From a virus (Duplodnaviria > Heunggongvirae > Uroviricota > Caudoviricetes), in the IMG/VR virus record IMGVR_UViG_2534681658_000013: a DNA stretch of 35,120 nucleotides; one strand, 5' to 3'. The number at the start of each line of letters is the position of its first letter. Position 1 is the first letter of the stretch. Below are positions 1,841 to 16,180 of this stretch, one piece after another. The position numbers and the translations under genes are program-made. The notes beneath the pieces were generated by a model, which saw only the letters and a list, made by a program, of their open reading frames with translations, was not told the DNA's origin and did not search any database.

Positions 1841-2803
1841 ATGAGCAGCAAGCTTCATGGTCTTGTCTGGGAAGGGTGCGCCTTCACCGGCATGATCTTA
1901 TCCAGGGTGGCGGTTATGGCCCGTCTTGCAGACTACAGCAATGACGAGGGCGTGTCATGGCCTGCCATTGAAACTATCCGGCGTCAGATCGGTGCAAGAA
2001 GTGAATCCACAGTGAAATCGGCTATTGCAGAACTGGCGAAAGAGGGCTGGCTGACGAAGGAAGAGCGTAAGGTCGGTGGGCGTAATGTAAGCAATATCTA
2101 TCGGCTTAATGTGGAAAAACTCGAAGCAGCTGCGGCGGCGGCGCGTGAGTCATATAAACCGAAAAGAAAAATTAGCCCGGCAAAAAATGACCCGTTAACA
2201 GTTGACCCGTCAAATATTGACCCCTCAACGGTTGACCCGTCAAATTTTGATGGATCAACCGTTGATAAAAAACTGCCGATTAGGGGGGCGATGATTGACC
2301 CCGATCCGTCAGTATTAAAACCTGATCCGTCAGATAAAAGATCTTCTTGTCCGGACGCTTCGCAACCGGACCCGCAGACGGCTGAACAGGATTTTTTAAC
2401 CCGACACCCTGACGCGGTTGTGTTCAGTGCGATAAAACGCCAGTGGGGAAGTCAGGAAGATTTGGTGTGCGCACAGTGGATCTGGGGACGAATCGTGAGT
2501 CTTTACGAGCAGGCGGCCAGCTATGATGGCGAGATCACTAGACCGAAAGAACCCAACTGGACAGCATGGGCCAATGACGTTCGCACAATGCGGATGCTGG
2601 ATGGCAGAACTCACAGACAAATTTGTGAAATGTTTGGGCGTCTCCAGCGGGATTCGTTCTGGGTAAAAAACATCATGAGTCCGGCAAAACTCCGGGAAAA
2701 ATGGGATGAACTGGTTATCCGCCTGGGGCGTTTGCCTGCGCAGCGTTGCGTGAATCACATTTCTGAACCGGACACTGAAATACCGCCGGGATTCAGGGGG
2801 TGA
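1841..2803 (+). CDS. Replication initiation protein (lambda O-like) with internal iterons
   Basis: N-terminal winged-helix-like segment; central region encodes repeated peptide motifs (DPLTVDPSNIDPSTVDPSNFDGSTVD) caused by direct DNA repeats; immediately followed by a DnaC-like gene. Start could instead be the GTG at 1826. Confidence 0.7.
   Translation: MSSKLHGLVWEGCAFTGMILSRVAVMARLADYSNDEGVSWPAIETIRRQIGARSESTVKSAIAELAKEGWLTKEERKVGGRNVSNIYRLNVEKLEAAAAAARESYKPKRKISPAKNDPLTVDPSNIDPSTVDPSNFDGSTVDKKLPIRGAMIDPDPSVLKPDPSDKRSSCPDASQPDPQTAEQDFLTRHPDAVVFSAIKRQWGSQEDLVCAQWIWGRIVSLYEQAASYDGEITRPKEPNWTAWANDVRTMRMLDGRTHRQICEMFGRLQRDSFWVKNIMSPAKLREKWDELVIRLGRLPAQRCVNHISEPDTEIPPGFRG
2188..2335. repeat. Iteron array / candidate phage origin of replication inside the O-like gene
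   Basis: Direct repeats of TGACCCGTCAA-like units (tgacccgttaaca, ttgacccgtcaaat, attgacccctcaacgg, ttgacccgtcaaat, ttgatggatcaaccg, tgattgaccccgatccgtcag, cctgatccgtcag) with an A-rich stretch in the middle, as in lambda ori within O. Confidence 0.6.
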
Positions 2804-2809
2804 CGTGTC

Positions 2810-3556
2810 ATGAAAAACATTGCGGCAGGCGGCGTTCTTGAACGTATCCGAAGACTGGCTCCGCCACATGTAACCGCCCCATTCAGAACGGTAGCGAAGT
2901 GGCACGAGTGGCAACTTGCTGAAGGCCAGAAACGTAGCGAGGAGATCAACCGCCTGAATCGCCAGTTGCGGGTGGAAAAAATTCTGAATCGCTCAGGCAT
3001 CCAGCCGTTGCACCGTAAATGCTCGTTTGCGAATTACCAGGTGCAGAACGACGGTCAGCGATACGCGTTGAGCCAGGCGAAATCTATCGCTGATGAACTG
3101 ATGACCGGATGCACAAATTTCGCGTTTAGCGGAAAACCTGGTACCGGGAAGAACCACTTAGCAGCAGCTATCGGGAATCGCCTGCTGAAAGACGGTCAGA
3201 CAGTGATTGTGGTTACCGTGGCTGATGTTATGAGTGCCCTCCCCGCCAGCTATGACGATGGGCAGTCAGGCGAAAAATTTTTGCGGGAACTGTGCGAAGT
3301 GGATCTGCTGGTTCTTGATGAAATTGGCATTCAGCGCGAGACGAAAAACGAGCAGGTGGTACTGCACCAGATTGTTGATCGCCGGACAGCGTCGATGCGC
3401 AGCGTGGGGATGCTGACAAACCTGAACTATGAGGCCATGAAAACATTGCTCGGCGAGCGGATTATGGATCGCATGACCATGAACGGCGGGCTATGGGTGA
3501 ATTTTAACTGGGAGAGCTGGCGTCCGAATGTCGTCCAGCCAGGAATTGCGAAGTAA
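2810..3556 (+). CDS. DnaC-like helicase loader / replication protein (IstB-like AAA+ ATPase)
   Basis: Walker [12 protein letters not shown] and Walker B LLVLDEIG motifs; 248 aa; follows the O-like gene as in Rac (YdaV-like) and other lambdoid prophages. Confidence 0.85.
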
Positions 3557-3578
3557 TTTTTACCGGGAGAAAAATTTA

Positions 3579-4340
3579 ATGGAGACTGTTTTTGACGCAC
3601 TGAAAGCAATGGGAAAAGCCACATCCATAGAACTTGCTGCGCGACTTGATATCAGTCGTGAAGAAGTGCTGAACGAACTATGGGAACTGAAAAAGGCTGG
3701 TTTTGTTGATAAAAGCGCGTACACCTGGCGTGTGGCTGATAACAACGTTCAGCAGGAACAGCCAGCGCAGGCAGAACTGCCGGAAGAAATCACCACAGCA
3801 ACAGTAGCGAAAATCTCAGAGTGCGATTTAACCGCGACGATTGAACAACGAGGACCACAAACGGCTGATGAGCTGGCTACATTGTTTGGTACCACATCAC
3901 GCAAAGTGGCTTCAACGCTGGCAATGGCAATCAGCAAAGGTCGTCTGATTCGCGTAAATCAGGGCGGTAAATTTCGTTACTGCATACCGGGCGATAATTT
4001 ACCAGCAGAGCCGAAAGCAGCATCGGTAGCGGAAACTGATGGTAAGGCCTTTCCTCATACCGCAGGTGTTGCGTTACCAGTACAGGAGGCTGCAACACAG
4101 GAAGATATTAAAACAGAAACTGTGGCGGACATTGTGCAGTCGCTGCCATCGTTTACTGAAACGCGAGCGGATGACCTGGTTTTACCATCACTGCATATGG
4201 CAAACCGCGAACTGCGTCGGGCGAAAAATCATGTCCAGAAGTGGGAGCGAGTCTGCGCCGCGCTGCGGGAGCTGAACAAGCACCGGGATATTGTTCGACA
4301 GATTACTGATTCTTCCCGCCGTGTTGTATCGGAAAAGTGA
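3579..4340 (+). CDS. Hypothetical phage protein, probably winged-helix DNA-binding
   Basis: ATG at 3579 with GGGAGA RBS; N-terminal wHTH-like segment ([30 protein letters not shown]). No family assigned. Confidence 0.55.
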
Positions 4341-4355
4341 TTGCCGGAGGCGCTT

Positions 4356-4787
4356 ATGGCAAAAGTATTTACACAAGAAGAGCGGGAAAAAATTAAAGGG
4401 CAGGTTGTTGAGCTAGTACGCCGGAGTGGGCGCGAGACGTTACGGCAACTGGAAGCCAAGACAGGTGCGACAAGATATCTGATGAGCGTTCTCGCCAGAG
4501 AGCTGGTTGCCAGTGGCGATGTATACAACTCTGGTTACGGGTTATTCCCGTCTGAACAGGCTCGTAAGGACTGGCAAAATGCCCGCAAAAAACTATCCAG
4601 GGCAAAGGTGAAGAAACCATCTGTGGTTGATCCGGACCTTATCTGGTCATTACCAGACGGAGAAATACGCCGCTACGACAGGCGTCTGAACATAATCTGT
4701 CGCGAGTGCCGGAAGAGCGAAGTTATGCAGCGTGTGCTGGCGTTTTATCAGAATGGTTTTCGAGAGAGGCTTGGAGATCAGGGATGA
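4356..4787 (+). CDS. Hypothetical phage protein
   Basis: ATG at 4356 with GGAGG RBS 7 nt upstream; 143 aa; last gene before the AT-rich island. Confidence 0.5.
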   Translation: MAKVFTQEEREKIKGQVVELVRRSGRETLRQLEAKTGATRYLMSVLARELVASGDVYNSGYGLFPSEQARKDWQNARKKLSRAKVKKPSVVDPDLIWSLPDGEIRRYDRRLNIICRECRKSEVMQRVLAFYQNGFRERLGDQG

Positions 4788-8418: not shown

Positions 8419-8782
8419 TGGGTGTGTTTTATAAAAATACCGCCCATACACAACAAAATACAAAAAGTATTACAGATAAAAAAGGAGCGTAATGTGCAGA
8501 TTTGTTGTTTTCCATATTTACTCACCTTAATATGATTAATCCCGATAAGATTGTTATTTCAGCGGTTTTCAAATGAAATATTATGCTAATTTGGCAGATT
8601 TGCATAACATTAAAATTTAATTTATCTAACCGCTTTTAATAATAAGCGTTGTATTTTTATCCCAGCAATCTGTTGTTTGGTTTTTATTCCATTAAGGTGG
8701 GGCTTTACACTGGAGCCAGTTTATTTATACTTCATACGTCAGCCTGAACAACTGGCACCTGCTGCGCCAGCAGAGAAAACAG

Positions 8783-12627: not shown

Positions 12628-12963
12628 TTATGGACTTTGTTGTTTTAGTCCATAAGGACATATTTGCAGAGTGCAACGGTTATTAAAGCATTCATTCAAT
12701 ACGTTATCTGTATTTGTAGGACATTCCTGGCTGTTTTTGATTAAATTCCAGAATGTTTTATTGAATGGTACTACGTTGTAAATGGTTACAGGTAGCACTT
12801 TGTTATTGAGCATGATACCTGTGTGAGTCAGTGTAAATATACTTTCAGGAGGTAAGAAAGCATCCGATTGATACCAGATTATTAATTTTATTTTACTCCA
12901 TATGACTGAAAAAGATATTCCGCATGATGGCTGGATAACTGTATCAATCACAATCCACTTCAT
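12628..12963 (-). CDS. Hypothetical accessory protein, antisense to the late operon
   Basis: ORF track; very AT-rich; opposite orientation to surrounding late genes. Confidence 0.35.
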
Positions 12964-13223
12964 TTAGCTTCCTTGTTTATGCCTTGCTGGTGATGTTCTG
13001 AAAAGTATAAATGATATTTTTGAATATAAACCATAGAGCAGAATTATTTTTCTGATGTTGTTTATTGTTTATTTAAATGCAGGGTGGTTTATATCTCGTC
13101 TTGTAGTTTATCCATGCATATCTGCTTGATGATCAGGTTTCTATTTAAGGTATGGTTTTGTGTTTTTTCTGTGTTACATGTCTGGTATTTTAAAGAATTA
13201 TTTTTCAGATGGTGGAAAGAACC

Positions 13224-13412
13224 ATGGCATTTAAACACTATGATGTTGTCAGGGCGGCGCCGCCGTCAGATCTTGCGGAAAAGCTGACACATAAACTGAA
13301 AGAGGGCTGGCAGCCGTTTGGTAGTCCGGTGGCCATAACCCCTTATACCCTGATGCAGGCGATTGCAGCAGAAGGTGATGTGGTGGTCAGTGGTGCAACT
13401 GAGCCCGAGTGA
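13224..13412 (+). CDS. Small conserved lambdoid-prophage protein upstream of holin (possibly DUF1737-like)
   Basis: ATG at 13224 with GGAAAG RBS (the ORF track starts 5 codons earlier at 13209); 62 aa. Family name is from memory and uncertain. Confidence 0.45.
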   Translation: MAFKHYDVVRAAPPSDLAEKLTHKLKEGWQPFGSPVAITPYTLMQAIAAEGDVVVSGATEPE

Positions 13413-13719
13413 TACTACGTCATCGTACTGGCCCGGCATTCCAGGCCATAAAAGACAGTCTGGCAGTGGGACTAAATGTACTGACGCTGACGGATATTAC
13501 CAAAAATGCAACGTATGGCGTTGAGATAGAAAGTCTGGTGCTGGAGATAAATGCACCGGCATCATCATAAAAAGTGAGCCAGTCAAATGGAAGGTATCGT
13601 TAAACTCACCGGTAGTGTCAGTGGATCGTCTGAGACGCTTGCATGAGTTATCAGAGCCATCAGTAGTTAACTGGTGGCTTTTTTATTGTTGTCAGCTTCC
13701 GGATAACGGGAGACGGGGT

Positions 13720-13935
13720 ATGGACCAGATGGAAAAAATCACAACAGGTGTGTCATACACCACGTCAGCGGTGGGAACGGGCTACTGGTTCCTGCAGTTG
13801 CTGGACAGGGTTTCCCCGTCTCAGTGGGCGGCAATAGGCGTGCTGGGGAGTCTGCTGTTTGGGCTGCTGACATATCTGACTAACCTGTATTTCAAAATCA
13901 GAGAGGACCGTCGTAAGGCGGCACGGGGAGAGTAA
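13720..13935 (+). CDS. Class II holin / pinholin (phage 21 S-like) with dual-start motif
   Basis: 71 aa [26 protein letters not shown]...[15 protein letters not shown] closely resembles the S21 pinholin; Met1/Met4 dual start (antiholin/holin); GGAGACGGGG RBS. The ORF track extends it upstream to 13615 in frame. Confidence 0.8.
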
Positions 13936-13939
13936 TTCA

Positions 13940-14284
13940 ATGACTCAAAACTATGAACTGATTGTGAAAGGGATCCGCAATTTTGAGAATAAAGTTACGG
14001 TAACTTTAGCGTTACGGGACAAAAAACGCTTTGACGGTGAAATTTTTGACCTGGACATCTCGCTGGACCGTGTTGAAGGTGCCGCGCTGGAGTTTTATGA
14101 GGCAGCAGCCAGAAGGAGCATCAGACAGGTCTTCCTGGATGTTGCTGCCGGGTTATGTGAAGGGGATGAGCAGTCGCCGGAAAAGCGCCCCGTAATTTTA
14201 GAGGCGCAGGATGTGTTGATAACCTACAGAGGAAAACTACCGGGAATAATTACGGGTTCTCTGAAGAGTCCGCCGAAATGGTAA
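13940..14284 (+). CDS. Hypothetical protein inserted between holin and endolysin
   Basis: ORF track, 114 aa; starts 5 nt after the holin stop; no motif recognised. Confidence 0.45.
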   Translation: MTQNYELIVKGIRNFENKVTVTLALRDKKRFDGEIFDLDISLDRVEGAALEFYEAAARRSIRQVFLDVAAGLCEGDEQSPEKRPVILEAQDVLITYRGKLPGIITGSLKSPPKW

Positions 14285-14522
14285 TTTTACCAGCATATTT
14301 TTCATCCAGTAATACAGCAAGCCGCCTGAAAGAGTCTTGTTGTTCCTGAGACCATTTGGGATTGCATGATTCAAACTGGATTGATGCCAGCGTTGATTGC
14401 ATCTGTTCCCTTGGAATTGAGAATGCCAGATATGAGAAGGCGACGGTAAGGGTATTCACGTCTTCCCGAAGCCTGGAAATGCTGTCGAGCAACTCCTGTA
14501 GAGAAATGGTGTTATTGTCCAT
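14250..14522 (-). CDS. Hypothetical protein, convergent with and overlapping the previous ORF
   Basis: ORF track, 90 aa; its 3' end overlaps the 3' end of 13940..14284 by 35 nt. Confidence 0.35.
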   Translation of the reverse strand: MDNNTISLQELLDSISRLREDVNTLTVAFSYLAFSIPREQMQSTLASIQFESCNPKWSQEQQDSFRRLAVLLDEKYAGKITISADSSENP

Positions 14523-14627
14523 AAATAATCCTCATGATTGTATTGACCTGTTAGCAGCCTGAGGCAACAGGCTGGAACTGATAAACATATCCAGGGCTCA
14601 GAAACCGATAAATCCTGATAAATATCC

Positions 14628-15161
14628 ATGAACGCAAAAATCAGATACGGCCTGTCGGCTGCCGTTCTGGCGCTGATTGCCGCTGGTGCGCCTGCGCCTG
14701 ACATTCTCGACCAGTTTCTGGATGAAAAGGAAGGTAACCACACCACGGCATACCGTGATGGCGCGGGTATCTGGACCATCTGCCGCGGTGCCATCCTGGT
14801 GGATGGCAAACCTGTCGTTCCGGGCATGAAGTTGTCGAAGGAAAAATGCGACCGGGTTAACGCCATTGAGCGTGATAAGGCGCTGGCATGGGTGGAGAAA
14901 AACATCAAAGTGCCATTGAGCGAACCCCAGAAAGCGGGGATCGCGTCATTCTGTCCGTACAACATTGGTCCCGGTAAGTGTTTCCCGTCGACGTTTTATA
15001 AACGAATTAATGCAGGTGATCGCAGGGGAGCGTGTGAGGCGATTCGCTGGTGGATTAAGGACGGTGGCAGAGACTGCCGTATTCGTTCAAACAACTGCTA
15101 CGGTCAGGTATCCCGTCGTGACCAGGAGAGCGCGCTGGCGTGCTGGGGTATCGACAGATAA
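14628..15161 (+). CDS. SAR endolysin (T4-type lysozyme, R21-like)
   Basis: N-terminal Gly/Ala-rich signal-anchor-release segment (GLSAAVLALIAAGAPA) followed by a lysozyme-like domain (EGNHTTAYRDGAGIWTICRG); pairs naturally with the pinholin. Confidence 0.85.
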   Translation: MNAKIRYGLSAAVLALIAAGAPAPDILDQFLDEKEGNHTTAYRDGAGIWTICRGAILVDGKPVVPGMKLSKEKCDRVNAIERDKALAWVEKNIKVPLSEPQKAGIASFCPYNIGPGKCFPSTFYKRINAGDRRGACEAIRWWIKDGGRDCRIRSNNCYGQVSRRDQESALACWGIDR

Positions 15162-15250
15162 GCAGAATATTTTGCTGAAAAATGCGGTTTGCTTACACGG
15201 ACGGATAACACGAAATCCTGCGAACTGACAAAAACTAAGTGAATAAAAGT

Positions 15251-15290
15251 AAAAACCCCGTTTGTTGGCTGCAAGCGGGGTTTTGTGTTT
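15251..15290 (+). terminator. Intrinsic terminator between endolysin and spanin genes
   Basis: Hairpin aaaaccccgtttg-ttggctg-caagcggggtttt (9-bp stem including one G-U) followed by TTTTGTGTTT; preceded by an A-tract, so possibly bidirectional. Confidence 0.5.
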
Positions 15291-15359
15291 CCTGACTCTG
15301 GAAAAGTCAAAGGAGAAAGTGTGTTTGATTTTAGCAAACTGATTCGGGAGATTCGAGTG

Positions 15360-15458
15360 ATGGCTGAAAAATTATCCACCTGGAAGTTCATTCTTATCTG
15401 GCTGGTGTTTGTGATTATGGCCTCCGGTTATTTCATCGGTCAGATACGCTGGTGGTGA
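15360..15458 (+). CDS. Small hydrophobic ORF (32 aa from the ATG; 45 aa if GTG at 15321 is used), putative small membrane protein
   Basis: Hand translation: MAEKLSTWKFILIWLVFVIMASGYFIGQIRWW, one predicted transmembrane segment; the stop lies 1 nt before the Rz ATG; AGGAGAAAG precedes the upstream GTG. Below the ORF-track size cutoff. Confidence 0.3.
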   Translation: MAEKLSTWKFILIWLVFVIMASGYFIGQIRWW

Positions 15459-15459
15459 A

Positions 15460-15927
15460 ATGAACCGCGTACTGTGCGTGGTCATCATTGCCCTGCTGGT
15501 GGCCTGTGGTGCGCTTAGTCTGGGGCTGAATCATTACCGTGATAACGCCATAACCTACAAAGAGCAGCGCGATAAAAAAGTCAGTGAGCTGGAGCAGGCA
15601 AATGCAACCATTACTGATATGCAGCAGCGCCAGCGTGATGTTGCTGCACTTGATGCCAGATACTCGAGGGAATTAGCCGATGCGAGAGCTGAAAATGAAA
15701 CTCTGCGCGCTGACGTTGCCGCTGGTCGTAAGCGCCTGCGGATCAACGCCACCTGCCCCGGTACCGTGCGTGAAGCCCCCACCACCTCCGGCGTGGATAA
15801 TGCAACCGGCCCCCGACTGGCAGACACCGCTGAACGGGATTATTTCACTCTCAGAGAGCGGTTGATGCTGATGCAGAAGCAGCTGGAAGTGGCGCAGGAA
15901 TATATCCGCACTCAGTGCCTGAAATAA
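15460..15927 (+). CDS. Rz: i-spanin Rz
   Basis: N-terminal transmembrane anchor, coiled-coil-rich periplasmic domain, Rz1 embedded in the +1 frame; follows the endolysin. Confidence 0.8.
   Translation: MNRVLCVVIIALLVACGALSLGLNHYRDNAITYKEQRDKKVSELEQANATITDMQQRQRDVAALDARYSRELADARAENETLRADVAAGRKRLRINATCPGTVREAPTTSGVDNATGPRLADTAERDYFTLRERLMLMQKQLEVAQEYIRTQCLK
15695..15865 (+). CDS. Rz1: o-spanin Rz1 (outer-membrane lipoprotein) embedded within Rz
   Basis: MKLCALTLPLVVSAC lipobox signal followed by a proline-rich mature region; entirely inside Rz in another frame. Confidence 0.7.
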   Translation: MKLCALTLPLVVSACGSTPPAPVPCVKPPPPPAWIMQPAPDWQTPLNGIISLSESG

Positions 15928-16180
15928 GTTTTGCTGATGCGCGGTATTGTCGCCGTATCCCCGCATTAACAGAGACCGCAGCCCGACCGGGAGACTCCTC
16001 TGCGCGAGTGTGCGGGGATAATCAAAAACGATACACACCGGGGTTTACCGCGTTAACGGAGCGCGGCGTTGTCCCCTCATAGTCGCCTGTCCGGTGCGAT
16101 GGTGGAAGAAACTGGACTACATTGAAAATGATAACCATTATCGTTTTTGCGGGTCCTTTCCGGCGATCCGGGCCGTTACG

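What the first reader, a model, noticed from the sequence alone, without database searches (positions are those of the whole stretch)
13940..14522. Convergent, 3'-overlapping gene pair inserted between pinholin and SAR endolysin
Canonical lysis cassettes run holin to endolysin directly. Here a 114-aa plus-strand ORF and a 90-aa minus-strand ORF, overlapping by 35 nt at their 3' ends, are inserted between them. Convergent overlap allows antisense interference; the pair could be a lysis-timing regulator, a toxin-antitoxin-like module, or a moron.
Basis: seen in the sequence. Interest (0 to 1): 0.45.

Follow-up and report, generated by a model that had tools for sequence, protein, structure and literature searches.

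The report
Prophage ydfR plus convergent small gene
Between the holin and endolysin genes of this E. coli prophage lie ydfR, a common lysis-cassette gene of unknown function, and a real 90-codon gene on the opposite strand; the two travel together in several bacterial genera, but what they do is untested.

Summary
A 114-aa + ORF (13940-14284) and a 90-aa - ORF (14250-14522) overlap by 35 nt, between a P21-type class II holin and a SAR-type lysozyme.

The + ORF is ydfR (Pfam DUF1327, 145 bits). It is a regular resident of this cassette type: K-12 Qin, Stx phages, about 80% of complete E. coli genomes. Only the - ORF ("ORF90", phrog_2411) is a presence/absence insert of about 275 bp. It accompanies roughly 1 in 6 ydfR copies.

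ORF90 is a genuine coding gene. dN/dS is 0.1-0.37 and the frame is open in seven lineages. It has a good Shine-Dalgarno site, a conserved -10-like box and a 5' hairpin, and is predicted to form three helices. It has no detectable relatives of known function.

In Citrobacter, Yersinia and two viral contigs, ORF90 homologues again converge on and overlap a late-strand ORF. These partners share only a C-terminal (K/R)I(T/I/F)G(S/E)LxxP motif with YdfR. They lie upstream of a holin or among tail genes.

So the pair looks like a conserved convergent two-gene moron module. It is not lysis-specific and not toxin-antitoxin-like. The mechanism I propose is inferred: ORF90 is expressed when late genes are silent, is shut off by late transcription, and acts on the partner's tail. 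Moderate interest.

The parts
13720..13935 (+). P21-type class II holin (pinholin-type S gene), 71 aa, with a Met1/Met4 dual start
   Evidence: PF04971 E 9e-33. PGAP 'class II holin family protein' in an identical genome.
13940..14284 (+). ydfR, 114 aa, DUF1327/YdfR family. Late-strand partner gene of the module.
   Evidence: PF07041 E 7e-43, 145 bits against a cut-off of 25. phrog_406 E 4e-68. 65% identical to K-12 YdfR over the N-terminal two thirds.
14249..14272 (+). Codons I104-P111 of ydfR: the C-terminal motif IITGSLKSP. It is shared by all convergent partners of ORF90 homologues.
   Evidence: 11 occurrences in 709 mechanical ORFs, and all 11 are partner C-termini. Synonymous codon differences between lineages.
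14250..14284 (.). 35-nt 3'-3' overlap of ydfR and ORF90. It encodes the poorly conserved, low-confidence tail of ORF90.
   Evidence: (pLDDT below 50 for residues 80-90).
14250..14522 (-). ORF90, 90 aa, phrog_2411 family. Predicted three-helix cytoplasmic protein of unknown function.
   Evidence: phrog_2411 E 1e-58. dN/dS 0.10-0.37 and no stop codons in 7 lineages. AF2 helices at 8-35, 38-52 and 59-77. Family limited to 19 representatives among 1.84 billion proteins.
14529..14533 (-). Shine-Dalgarno GAGGA, 6 nt before the ORF90 ATG
   Evidence: Read from the sequence. (A/G)AGGA lies at the same spacing in all lineages.
14555..14574 (-). Hairpin CAGCCTG-N6-CAGGCTG in the presumed ORF90 5' leader. 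In other genera the homologous position carries a longer nested hairpin.
   Evidence: 5 of 14 pairs have compensatory changes, and the G.U pairs fit only the ORF90-sense strand; hairpin kept with different sequences in E. coli variants.
14584..14596 (-). Conserved box CCCTGGATATGTT, containing a -10-like TATGTT at 14584-14589, 9 nt upstream of the hairpin. Putative ORF90 promoter, with a weak -35-like TTTATC at 14607-14612.
   Evidence: the box CCTGG(A/T)TAT(G/T)NT is conserved in Escherichia, Citrobacter and viral-contig lineages. It is below the threshold of the consensus scan, so this is inferred only.
14628..15161 (+). SAR-type lysozyme (rrrQ-like endolysin), 177 aa
   Evidence: PF00959 E 5.5e-24. 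PGAP 'rrrQ lysozyme'.
15460..15927 (+). Rz-type i-spanin, with the embedded Rz1-like lipoprotein ORF at 15680-15865
   Evidence: PF03245 E 8e-49. ORF list.

Best explanation
The plus-strand ORF is ydfR, a late-operon accessory gene that normally sits between the P21-type holin and the lysozyme in E. coli lambdoid prophages. The minus-strand ORF (ORF90) is a real protein-coding gene for a small acidic three-helix cytoplasmic protein.

Together they form a conserved convergent two-gene module. One gene is a late-strand protein whose only constant feature is a C-terminal (K/R)I(T/I/F)G(S/E)LxxP tail. The other is ORF90, on the opposite strand, with its own promoter-like box, a stem-loop at or near the predicted mRNA 5' end and a Shine-Dalgarno site. 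The module behaves as a moron that can sit at different places in late operons.

Proposed mechanism (inferred, not shown):
- ORF90 is made from its own weak sigma-70 promoter while the late operon is silent, that is, in the lysogen or early in infection.
- After induction, Q-antiterminated late transcription runs head-on through it. This shuts it off by transcriptional interference and by pairing of the overlapping 3' ends.
- The ORF90 protein works on, or is neutralised by, the ITGSL tail of its late-expressed partner.

The 35-nt overlap itself is probably a by-product. It covers only ORF90's unconserved tail.
For: Shown:
- ydfR identity and its ubiquity in this position.
- ORF90 is coding. 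dN/dS is 0.10-0.37 in all 28 pairwise comparisons that gave a finite value. The frame is open in all 7 lineages, while the other frames have stops or pN/pS of 1 or more; the codon-3-matched antisense frame shows a mirror signal but has stops. Variable sites by codon position are 44/33/71.
- ORF90 is a roughly 275-bp indel ending inside the last two ydfR codons when compared with phage PhiR40_1.
- Module conservation. Among the 164 ORF90-family ORFs found in 166 loci, every locus with intact flanks has a convergent overlapping partner ending in the motif. This includes Citrobacter (L006, L013), Yersinia (L014), a metagenomic contig (L007) and viral contigs (L095, L096), where ORF90 identity falls to 38-60%. 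In those loci the partner is not recognisably DUF1327.
- Different contexts: upstream of a lambda-S-type holin, after tail gene I, and between gpM and gpL.
- The motif is kept through synonymous codon changes and occurs nowhere else in 63,832 residues of background ORFs.
- A conserved -10-like box, hairpin and SD lie upstream of ORF90 in all lineages.
- The ORF90 tail is unconserved and modelled at low confidence.
Against: - No expression data of any kind were available.
- The promoter box does not reach the consensus-scan threshold, and no terminator was found for ORF90.
- Partner similarity is only an 11-residue motif. It is individually weak: HMM E 0.016-0.5 against 709 ORFs, and about 5 for L095/L096; hhalign E 0.009.
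- Most ydfR copies that carry the same tail lack ORF90, so the tail does not need ORF90.
- ORF90 survives as an intact orphan next to iha and on a plasmid, so it may not need a partner.
- Only about 5 independent lineages exist.
- Fold and profile searches give no functional clue.
- The YdfR model is too poor to use (pLDDT 46).
Confidence: 0.45

Rival explanations
1. Two unrelated neighbours. ORF90 is a stand-alone moron that happens to land at the 3' end of late genes. The overlap and the shared tail are by-products: the mobile segment extends a few dozen bases past ORF90's functional end, and upstream ORFs simply read into it.
For: - ydfR occurs without ORF90 in about 84% of copies.
- ORF90 orphans stay intact without a partner.
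- E. coli YdfR variants diverge exactly after GSLKTPP into KW*, ESQP*, EF* or a 65-aa in-frame extension. This marks a recombination junction.
- The mosaic locus L043 carries only the last 113 nt of ydfR together with ORF90.
- The overlapped ORF90 tail is unconserved.
Against: - The tail motif is kept at the amino-acid level through synonymous changes in the partner's frame.
- In the Citrobacter lineages the motif lies outside the overlap with ORF90.
- Convergent orientation is kept in every intact locus across three genera and four genomic contexts.
Confidence: 0.3
2. Lysis-timing regulator. YdfR and/or ORF90 modulate pinholin triggering or SAR-endolysin release.
For: - In E. coli, DUF1327 genes sit between holin and lysozyme. 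In K-12 the ydfR stop overlaps the rrrQ start.
- The discussion of PMC13232886 cites a screen linking ydfR to envelope integrity.
Against: - Neither protein has a transmembrane segment (sequences; models).
- The homologous module occurs among tail genes and upstream of an unrelated holin.
- Many P21-type cassettes work without ORF90.
Confidence: 0.12
3. Toxin-antitoxin-like or abortive-infection pair. One protein is toxic, and the other protein or its antisense transcript neutralises it.
For: - Two small genes are inherited together.
- The convergent overlap could give antisense control.
- ORF90 is acidic and the YdfR C-terminal part is basic (residue counts).
Against: - The genes are not an operon.
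- There are no TA or defence family hits.
- Each gene is found without the other.
- PMC13232886 reports growth arrest for YegJ only, not for K-12 YdfR. That YdfR lacks the tail, so this point is weak.
Confidence: 0.08
4. The minus-strand ORF is not translated. The conserved feature is an antisense RNA or a mirror of selection on the plus strand.
For: The antisense frame whose third codon positions coincide also shows a low pN/pS of 0.43. A 68-aa plus-strand ORF (14356-14562) exists in the window.
Against: - That plus-strand frame carries stop codons in 6 of 7 lineages, while the ORF90 frame has none.
- ORF90 has a conserved SD and start codon.
- Homologues at 25-40% identity keep the helical pattern and motifs.
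- PHROGs holds it as a 90-aa family.
Confidence: 0.03

Closest known systems
YdfR of the E. coli K-12 Qin cryptic prophage (b1555; Pfam DUF1327 / PF07041)
   Same: The N-terminal roughly 70 residues are homologous (65% identity overall). The position between a class II holin (essQ) and the lysozyme (rrrQ) is the same. K-12 YdfR residues 1-72 were reported to bind the catalytic half of RNase E and to co-purify RNA (PMC13232886), which gives a testable lead for the window protein.
   Different: K-12 YdfR has an unrelated C-terminus after about residue 70. It lacks the ITGSL tail, overlaps the rrrQ start and has no convergent ORF90. No function is established for any family member.
Morons of lambdoid phages, such as lambda bor (opposite-strand gene next to the lysis genes, expressed in the lysogen). 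Recalled from general knowledge, not tested here.
   Same: An extra gene is present in some phages and absent in close relatives. It is embedded in a late operon, faces against late transcription, and has its own promoter-like element.
   Different: ORF90 is cytoplasmic and helical, not a lipoprotein. No terminator was found. It is linked to a specific late-strand partner motif across genera, which classical single-gene morons are not.
Lambda OOP RNA / cII 3'-end antisense overlap. Recalled from general knowledge.
   Same: Convergent transcripts of a lambdoid phage overlap at the 3' end of a protein-coding gene. This allows duplex-dependent down-regulation.
   Different: Here both strands encode proteins. 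The overlap length varies from 7 to 47 nt between lineages. No RNA data exist.
Type II toxin-antitoxin modules
   Same: Two small adjacent genes are inherited together on mobile elements.
   Different: The genes are convergent rather than co-transcribed. No family hits were found, and each partner is found alone.

Membership tests
YdfR / DUF1327 (PF07041) | Match to the Pfam model above the gathering score | tested here: met
   145.2 bits against a cut-off of 25. Residues 1-111 match profile positions 1-91 of 93.
YdfR / DUF1327 (PF07041) | Location between a class II holin and the lysozyme of a lambdoid lysis cassette | tested here: met
   The same layout occurs in K-12 Qin, PhiR40_1 and YYZ-2008.
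YdfR / DUF1327 (PF07041) | Binding to the RNase E N-terminal domain, reported for K-12 YdfR | not testable with these tools
   Known only from PMC13232886. The window protein shares the N-terminal region.
phrog_2411 (ORF90 family) | Full-length match to the PHROG profile | tested here: met
   E 1.1e-58, residues 1-90 against profile 1-90 of 90. The Citrobacter and Yersinia homologues also match.
Moron (independently transcribed extra gene in a phage operon) | Present between genes or sequences that are contiguous in related phages | tested here: met
   A roughly 275-bp indel against PhiR40_1. In L095/L096 the module sits between gpM and gpL.
Moron (independently transcribed extra gene in a phage operon) | Own promoter | tested here: inconclusive
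   A conserved -10-like box lies 7-9 nt before a conserved hairpin in all lineages. It scores only 7 of 12 to the consensus and is missed by the scan. No transcript data exist.
Moron (independently transcribed extra gene in a phage operon) | Own factor-independent terminator | tested here: not met
   No convincing terminator lies downstream of ORF90 on the minus strand.
Type II toxin-antitoxin module | Co-directional, co-transcribed gene pair | tested here: not met
   The genes are convergent with a 3' overlap.
Type II toxin-antitoxin module | Obligate co-occurrence and membership of known toxin or antitoxin families | tested here: not met
   ydfR has 8,614 places against 1,354 for ORF90. ORF90 orphans exist. 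No Pfam, NCBIfam or PADLOC hits.
Antiholin / holin-associated lysis regulator | Membrane association or a holin-derived sequence, and restriction to lysis cassettes | tested here: not met
   No hydrophobic segment of transmembrane length in either protein. The module is found among tail genes.
Known RNA families (Rfam 15) | Covariance-model match in 13000-16000 | tested here: not met
   Only one sub-threshold rimP-leader hit, at 15228-15317 and outside the finding.

The most novel reading that the evidence does not exclude
The pair is a previously undescribed kind of phage switch module. A small helical protein is made only while late genes are silent. It is paired head-on with a late protein that carries a portable C-terminal ITGSL tag, and the tag is what the small protein recognises. 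Examples would be a lysogen-expressed exclusion or defence factor with a built-in late-expressed antidote, or a safety lock on a late effector that engages RNase E. The convergent layout would enforce mutually exclusive expression.
Probability: 0.2. Interest if true: 0.65.

Novelty: new member of a known kind. Interest (0 to 1): 0.35.

Why it matters
ydfR is among the commonest prophage genes of E. coli (about 80% of complete genomes, up to 10 copies each) and still has no function. ORF90 is present in about 22% of genomes and has never been studied.

ORF90 is a real gene. It travels with a tail motif of its convergent partner across genera and across lysis and tail contexts. This turns two 'hypothetical proteins' into a defined two-component unit that can be tested: deletion, tail truncation, interaction assay and strand-specific transcript mapping.

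It also shows that the holin-endolysin junction of P21-type cassettes is a hot spot for cargo. If the module only adds one more moron, the gain is modest.

Tried and rejected
- Sequence and profile searches for ORF90. Pfam, NCBIfam and PADLOC gave nothing; a 15-residue Mip-like hit at E 0.037 was dismissed. PDB sequences gave nothing. The HMM against 1.84 billion representatives found only 19 family members, plus one repetitive 971-aa protein judged spurious.
- YdfR structure. The AF2 model has pLDDT 46, so no fold search was run on it.
- A protein search with the YdfR C-terminal 46 residues returned only YdfR fragments.
- The idea that the 65-aa in-frame extension of the 176/183-aa YdfR variants is an inverted or fused ORF90 was rejected (hhalign E 0.29).
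- The idea that the divergent partners are full-length DUF1327 proteins was rejected. There is no Pfam hit, and hhalign aligns only the last 11 residues.
- tblastn of the divergent partners against GenBank phages found no match.
- Viral-contig scans with distant ORF90 members P0222, P0224 and P0215 found nothing. One alignment was too divergent to scan with.
- A terminator search downstream of ORF90 found nothing convincing.
- Literature: no paper mentions ORF90 accessions or ybl58, and DUF1327 appears in a single paper.

Full report
**1. Observation.** The ORF list gives a 114-aa ORF at 13940-14284 (+) and a 90-aa ORF at 14250-14522 (-). They share 35 nt at their 3' ends (sequence).
- Upstream lies a 71-aa P21-type class II holin (13720-13935; PF04971, E 9e-33) with the Met1/Met4 dual start.
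- Downstream lie a phage lysozyme (14628-15161; PF00959) with a G/A-rich SAR-like N-terminus, and an Rz/Rz1 pair.
- The 1.6-kb region is 100% identical to chromosomes of several human E. coli isolates, including ETEC strains.
- In those genomes PGAP annotates: holin, 'YdfR family protein', 'hypothetical protein' (minus strand), lysozyme.
- The window is therefore a lambdoid E. coli prophage, and the description is accurate.

**2. The plus-strand ORF is ydfR.** It matches Pfam DUF1327 at 145 bits against a cut-off of 25 and phrog_406 over its full length.
- Holin-ydfR-lysozyme is a standard layout. Examples are K-12 Qin essQ-ydfR-rrrQ-rzpQ, phage PhiR40_1 and the Stx1 prophage YYZ-2008. There are 101 GenBank phage records in total, mostly Stx converting phages.
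- ydfR DNA is found at 8,614 places in 4,349 of 5,426 complete E. coli genomes. The premise that cassettes run directly from holin to endolysin does not hold for this cassette type.
- The only functional work found is on K-12 YdfR. Residues 1-72 interact with the catalytic half of RNase E in two-hybrid and co-purification tests, and RNA co-purifies. Overproduction changes few transcripts, and growth arrest is reported only for another protein, YegJ (PMC13232886).
- The window protein shares that N-terminal region but has a different C-terminus from about residue 70.

**3. The minus-strand ORF (ORF90) is a real gene.**
- It matches phrog_2411 end to end (E 1e-58).
- Eight homologues were compared: E. 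coli phages, E. coli B, an iha island, a plasmid, Citrobacter and a metagenomic contig. They give dN/dS of 0.10-0.37 in every comparison with a finite value.
- Across seven lineages the ORF90 frame has no stop codon and a pN/pS of 0.38. Four other frames have ratios of 1 or more.
- The frame that mirrors ORF90's third positions shows 0.43 but carries stops in six of the seven lineages. Variable columns fall 44/33/71 on codon positions 1/2/3.
- A GAGGA Shine-Dalgarno lies 6 nt before the ATG.
- AF2 predicts three helices (8-35, 38-52, 59-77; mean pLDDT 71) and a low-confidence tail at 80-90. That tail is the part encoded in the overlap, and it is poorly conserved.
- The family is tiny. It has 62 clusters at 90% identity, nearly all Escherichia/Shigella, and 19 representatives among 1.84 billion proteins.
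- No Pfam, NCBIfam, PADLOC, PDB or structural relative gives a functional clue.

**4. What is inserted.** Alignment with PhiR40_1 shows a block of about 275 bp present only in the window.
- PhiR40_1 has a 92-93% identical YdfR but no ORF90.
- The block runs from the last two ydfR codons to the distal arm of a hairpin upstream of ORF90.
- E. coli YdfR variants diverge exactly after ...GSLKTPP. The alternatives are KW* (with ORF90), ESQP* or EF* (without it), or an in-frame 65-aa helical extension giving 176/183-aa forms. That extension is not related to ORF90.
- ORF90 DNA occurs at 1,354 places in 1,221 genomes, which is about one ydfR copy in six.

**5. The pair is a conserved module.**
- I searched fetched loci from species-representative genomes, IMG/VR and metagenomes with an ORF90 HMM. 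It found 164 ORFs in 166 loci.
- Every locus with intact flanks has a convergent, 3'-overlapping partner.
- The exceptions without a listed partner are contig ends, frameshifts and one mosaic locus. That locus carries only the last 113 nt of ydfR next to ORF90.
- The other exceptions are orphan copies in IS-rich remnants, next to iha or a plasmid autotransporter gene.
- The layout holds in lineages where ORF90 identity drops to 38-60% and the partner is not recognisably DUF1327:
  - Citrobacter: a 238-aa or 63-77-aa partner, 14-nt overlap. The pair lies upstream of a lambda-S-type holin, CHAP endolysin and Rz/Rz1.
  - Contig L007: 20-nt overlap.
  - Yersinia massiliensis: a 71-aa partner, 47-nt overlap, after a lambda tail-I-like gene.
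  - Two viral contigs: an 85-aa coiled-coil partner, 7-nt overlap, between tail genes M and L.
- The only feature common to all partners is the C-terminal motif (K/R)I(T/I/F)G(S/E)LxxP.
  - It is kept through synonymous codon changes in the partner's frame.
  - It occurs 11 times in 709 mechanical ORFs (63,832 residues), and all 11 are partner C-termini.
  - By itself the similarity is weak (HMM E 0.016-0.5; hhalign E 0.009). The argument therefore rests on position and recurrence.

**6. Expression signals of ORF90 (inferred).**
- A box CCTGG(A/T)TAT(G/T)NT lies upstream of ORF90 in nearly all lineages. In the window it is at 14584-14596 on the minus strand and contains a -10-like TATGTT. Contig L007 and the Yersinia locus keep only the -10-like hexamer.
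- The box lies 7-9 nt before a conserved hairpin (window 14555-14574).
- In Citrobacter, Yersinia and the viral contigs the hairpin is longer and nested, closed by CAGCC/GGCTG. Five of 14 pairs have compensatory changes. The G.U pairs only work on the ORF90-sense strand.
- An (A/G)AGGA Shine-Dalgarno site follows.
- A start about 7 nt after the box would place the stem-loop at or near the 5' end of the mRNA.
- The box is too weak for the consensus scan. No terminator was found and there is no Rfam match.

**7. Interpretation.**
- Shown: gene identities, coding status, the indel, and the conserved convergent layout with the tail motif in several genera and contexts.
- Inferred:
  - ORF90 is transcribed from its own promoter when the late operon is off.
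  - Head-on, Q-antiterminated late transcription and the 3' overlap silence it after induction.
  - Its protein acts on, or is neutralised by, the ITGSL tail of the late partner.
- The module occurs among tail genes, so a lysis-specific role for the pair is unlikely. ydfR itself may still act in lysis or on RNase E.
- A TA-like reading is disfavoured. The genes are convergent, each gene is found alone, and there are no family hits.
- The main rival is that ORF90 is an independent moron and the tail and overlap are by-products of where the segment recombines.

**8. Verdict.**
- The moron reading holds for ORF90. Antisense interplay is possible but untested. TA and lysis-timer readings are not supported.
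- Both genes are already in databases as families of unknown function. The new element is the conserved two-gene convergent module with a shared tail motif.
- I rate it a new member of a known kind (a phage moron or accessory module). Interest is 0.35. I give a 0.2 chance that it is a new type of lysogeny/late-phase switch module.

Noticed in passing
window 15162-15459: A 298-bp unannotated spacer separates the lysozyme stop from the Rz start. These two genes overlap in E. coli B and PhiR40_1. The spacer holds a strong 14-bp hairpin with a T-rich tail (15252-15284, +) and a 57-aa ORF with a hydrophobic segment (15285-15458). It is present at 80% coverage or more in 871 E. coli genomes, always without annotation. 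YYZ-2008 carries an ant gene at the same junction.
   Followed up: partly
window 15228-15317 (-): A sub-threshold Rfam hit to the rimP leader (29.9 bits against a gathering score of 47, E 0.039). It coincides with the hairpin in the R-Rz spacer and is probably chance.
   Followed up: no
window 13653-13690 (+): A terminator-like hairpin (12 pairs) followed by TTTTATTG lies about 30 nt before the holin start. It would need Q antitermination to be read through.
   Followed up: no
window 12628-12963 (-) and upstream: Another opposite-strand gene lies just upstream of the lysis cassette: the anti-adaptor IraM. In the identical genome, tRNA-Ile and tRNA-Arg genes, a Q antiterminator and an IteS anti-phage peptidase lie further upstream (annotation of L001). 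The Q-to-S interval is packed with cargo.
   Followed up: no
proteins P0121, P0125, P0149, P0178: The 176/183-aa YdfR variants carry an in-frame 65-70-aa helical extension that starts exactly at the GSLKTPP junction where ORF90-bearing and ORF90-less variants diverge. P0121 alone was seen on 463 contigs. The end of ydfR is a recombination junction with at least four alternative continuations.
   Followed up: partly
L043 (IMG/VR contig), about 2362-4707: A mosaic lysis region: holin - ydfR - lysozyme (85% id) - last 113 nt of ydfR - ORF90 - lysozyme (98% id). The ydfR 3' end plus ORF90 was duplicated or recombined as a unit.
   Followed up: partly
L008 2446-2718 (chromosome, next to iha); L009 2467-2736 (plasmid pTK3896_2, next to an autotransporter gene): Intact orphan ORF90 homologues (about 72% DNA identity) survive in IS-rich remnants next to virulence-type genes. 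L008 still keeps the promoter-like box and traces of the lysozyme start. dN/dS against the phage copies is 0.2-0.37.
   Followed up: partly
L131 477-1077: A variant with a 12-nt duplication inside the overlap. Both reading frames stay open: ORF90 ...ISAELTAASSENQ, and YdfR ...GSLKMPPSTPPKW.
   Followed up: no
L003 (phage phiSTEC1575-Stx2k) 1285-3303: The P21-type holin - ydfR - ORF90 block is followed by a second, unrelated lysis set (two holin-family genes and an M15 peptidase) instead of a lysozyme. The holin-ydfR-ORF90 block recombines as a unit with different endolysins.
   Followed up: no
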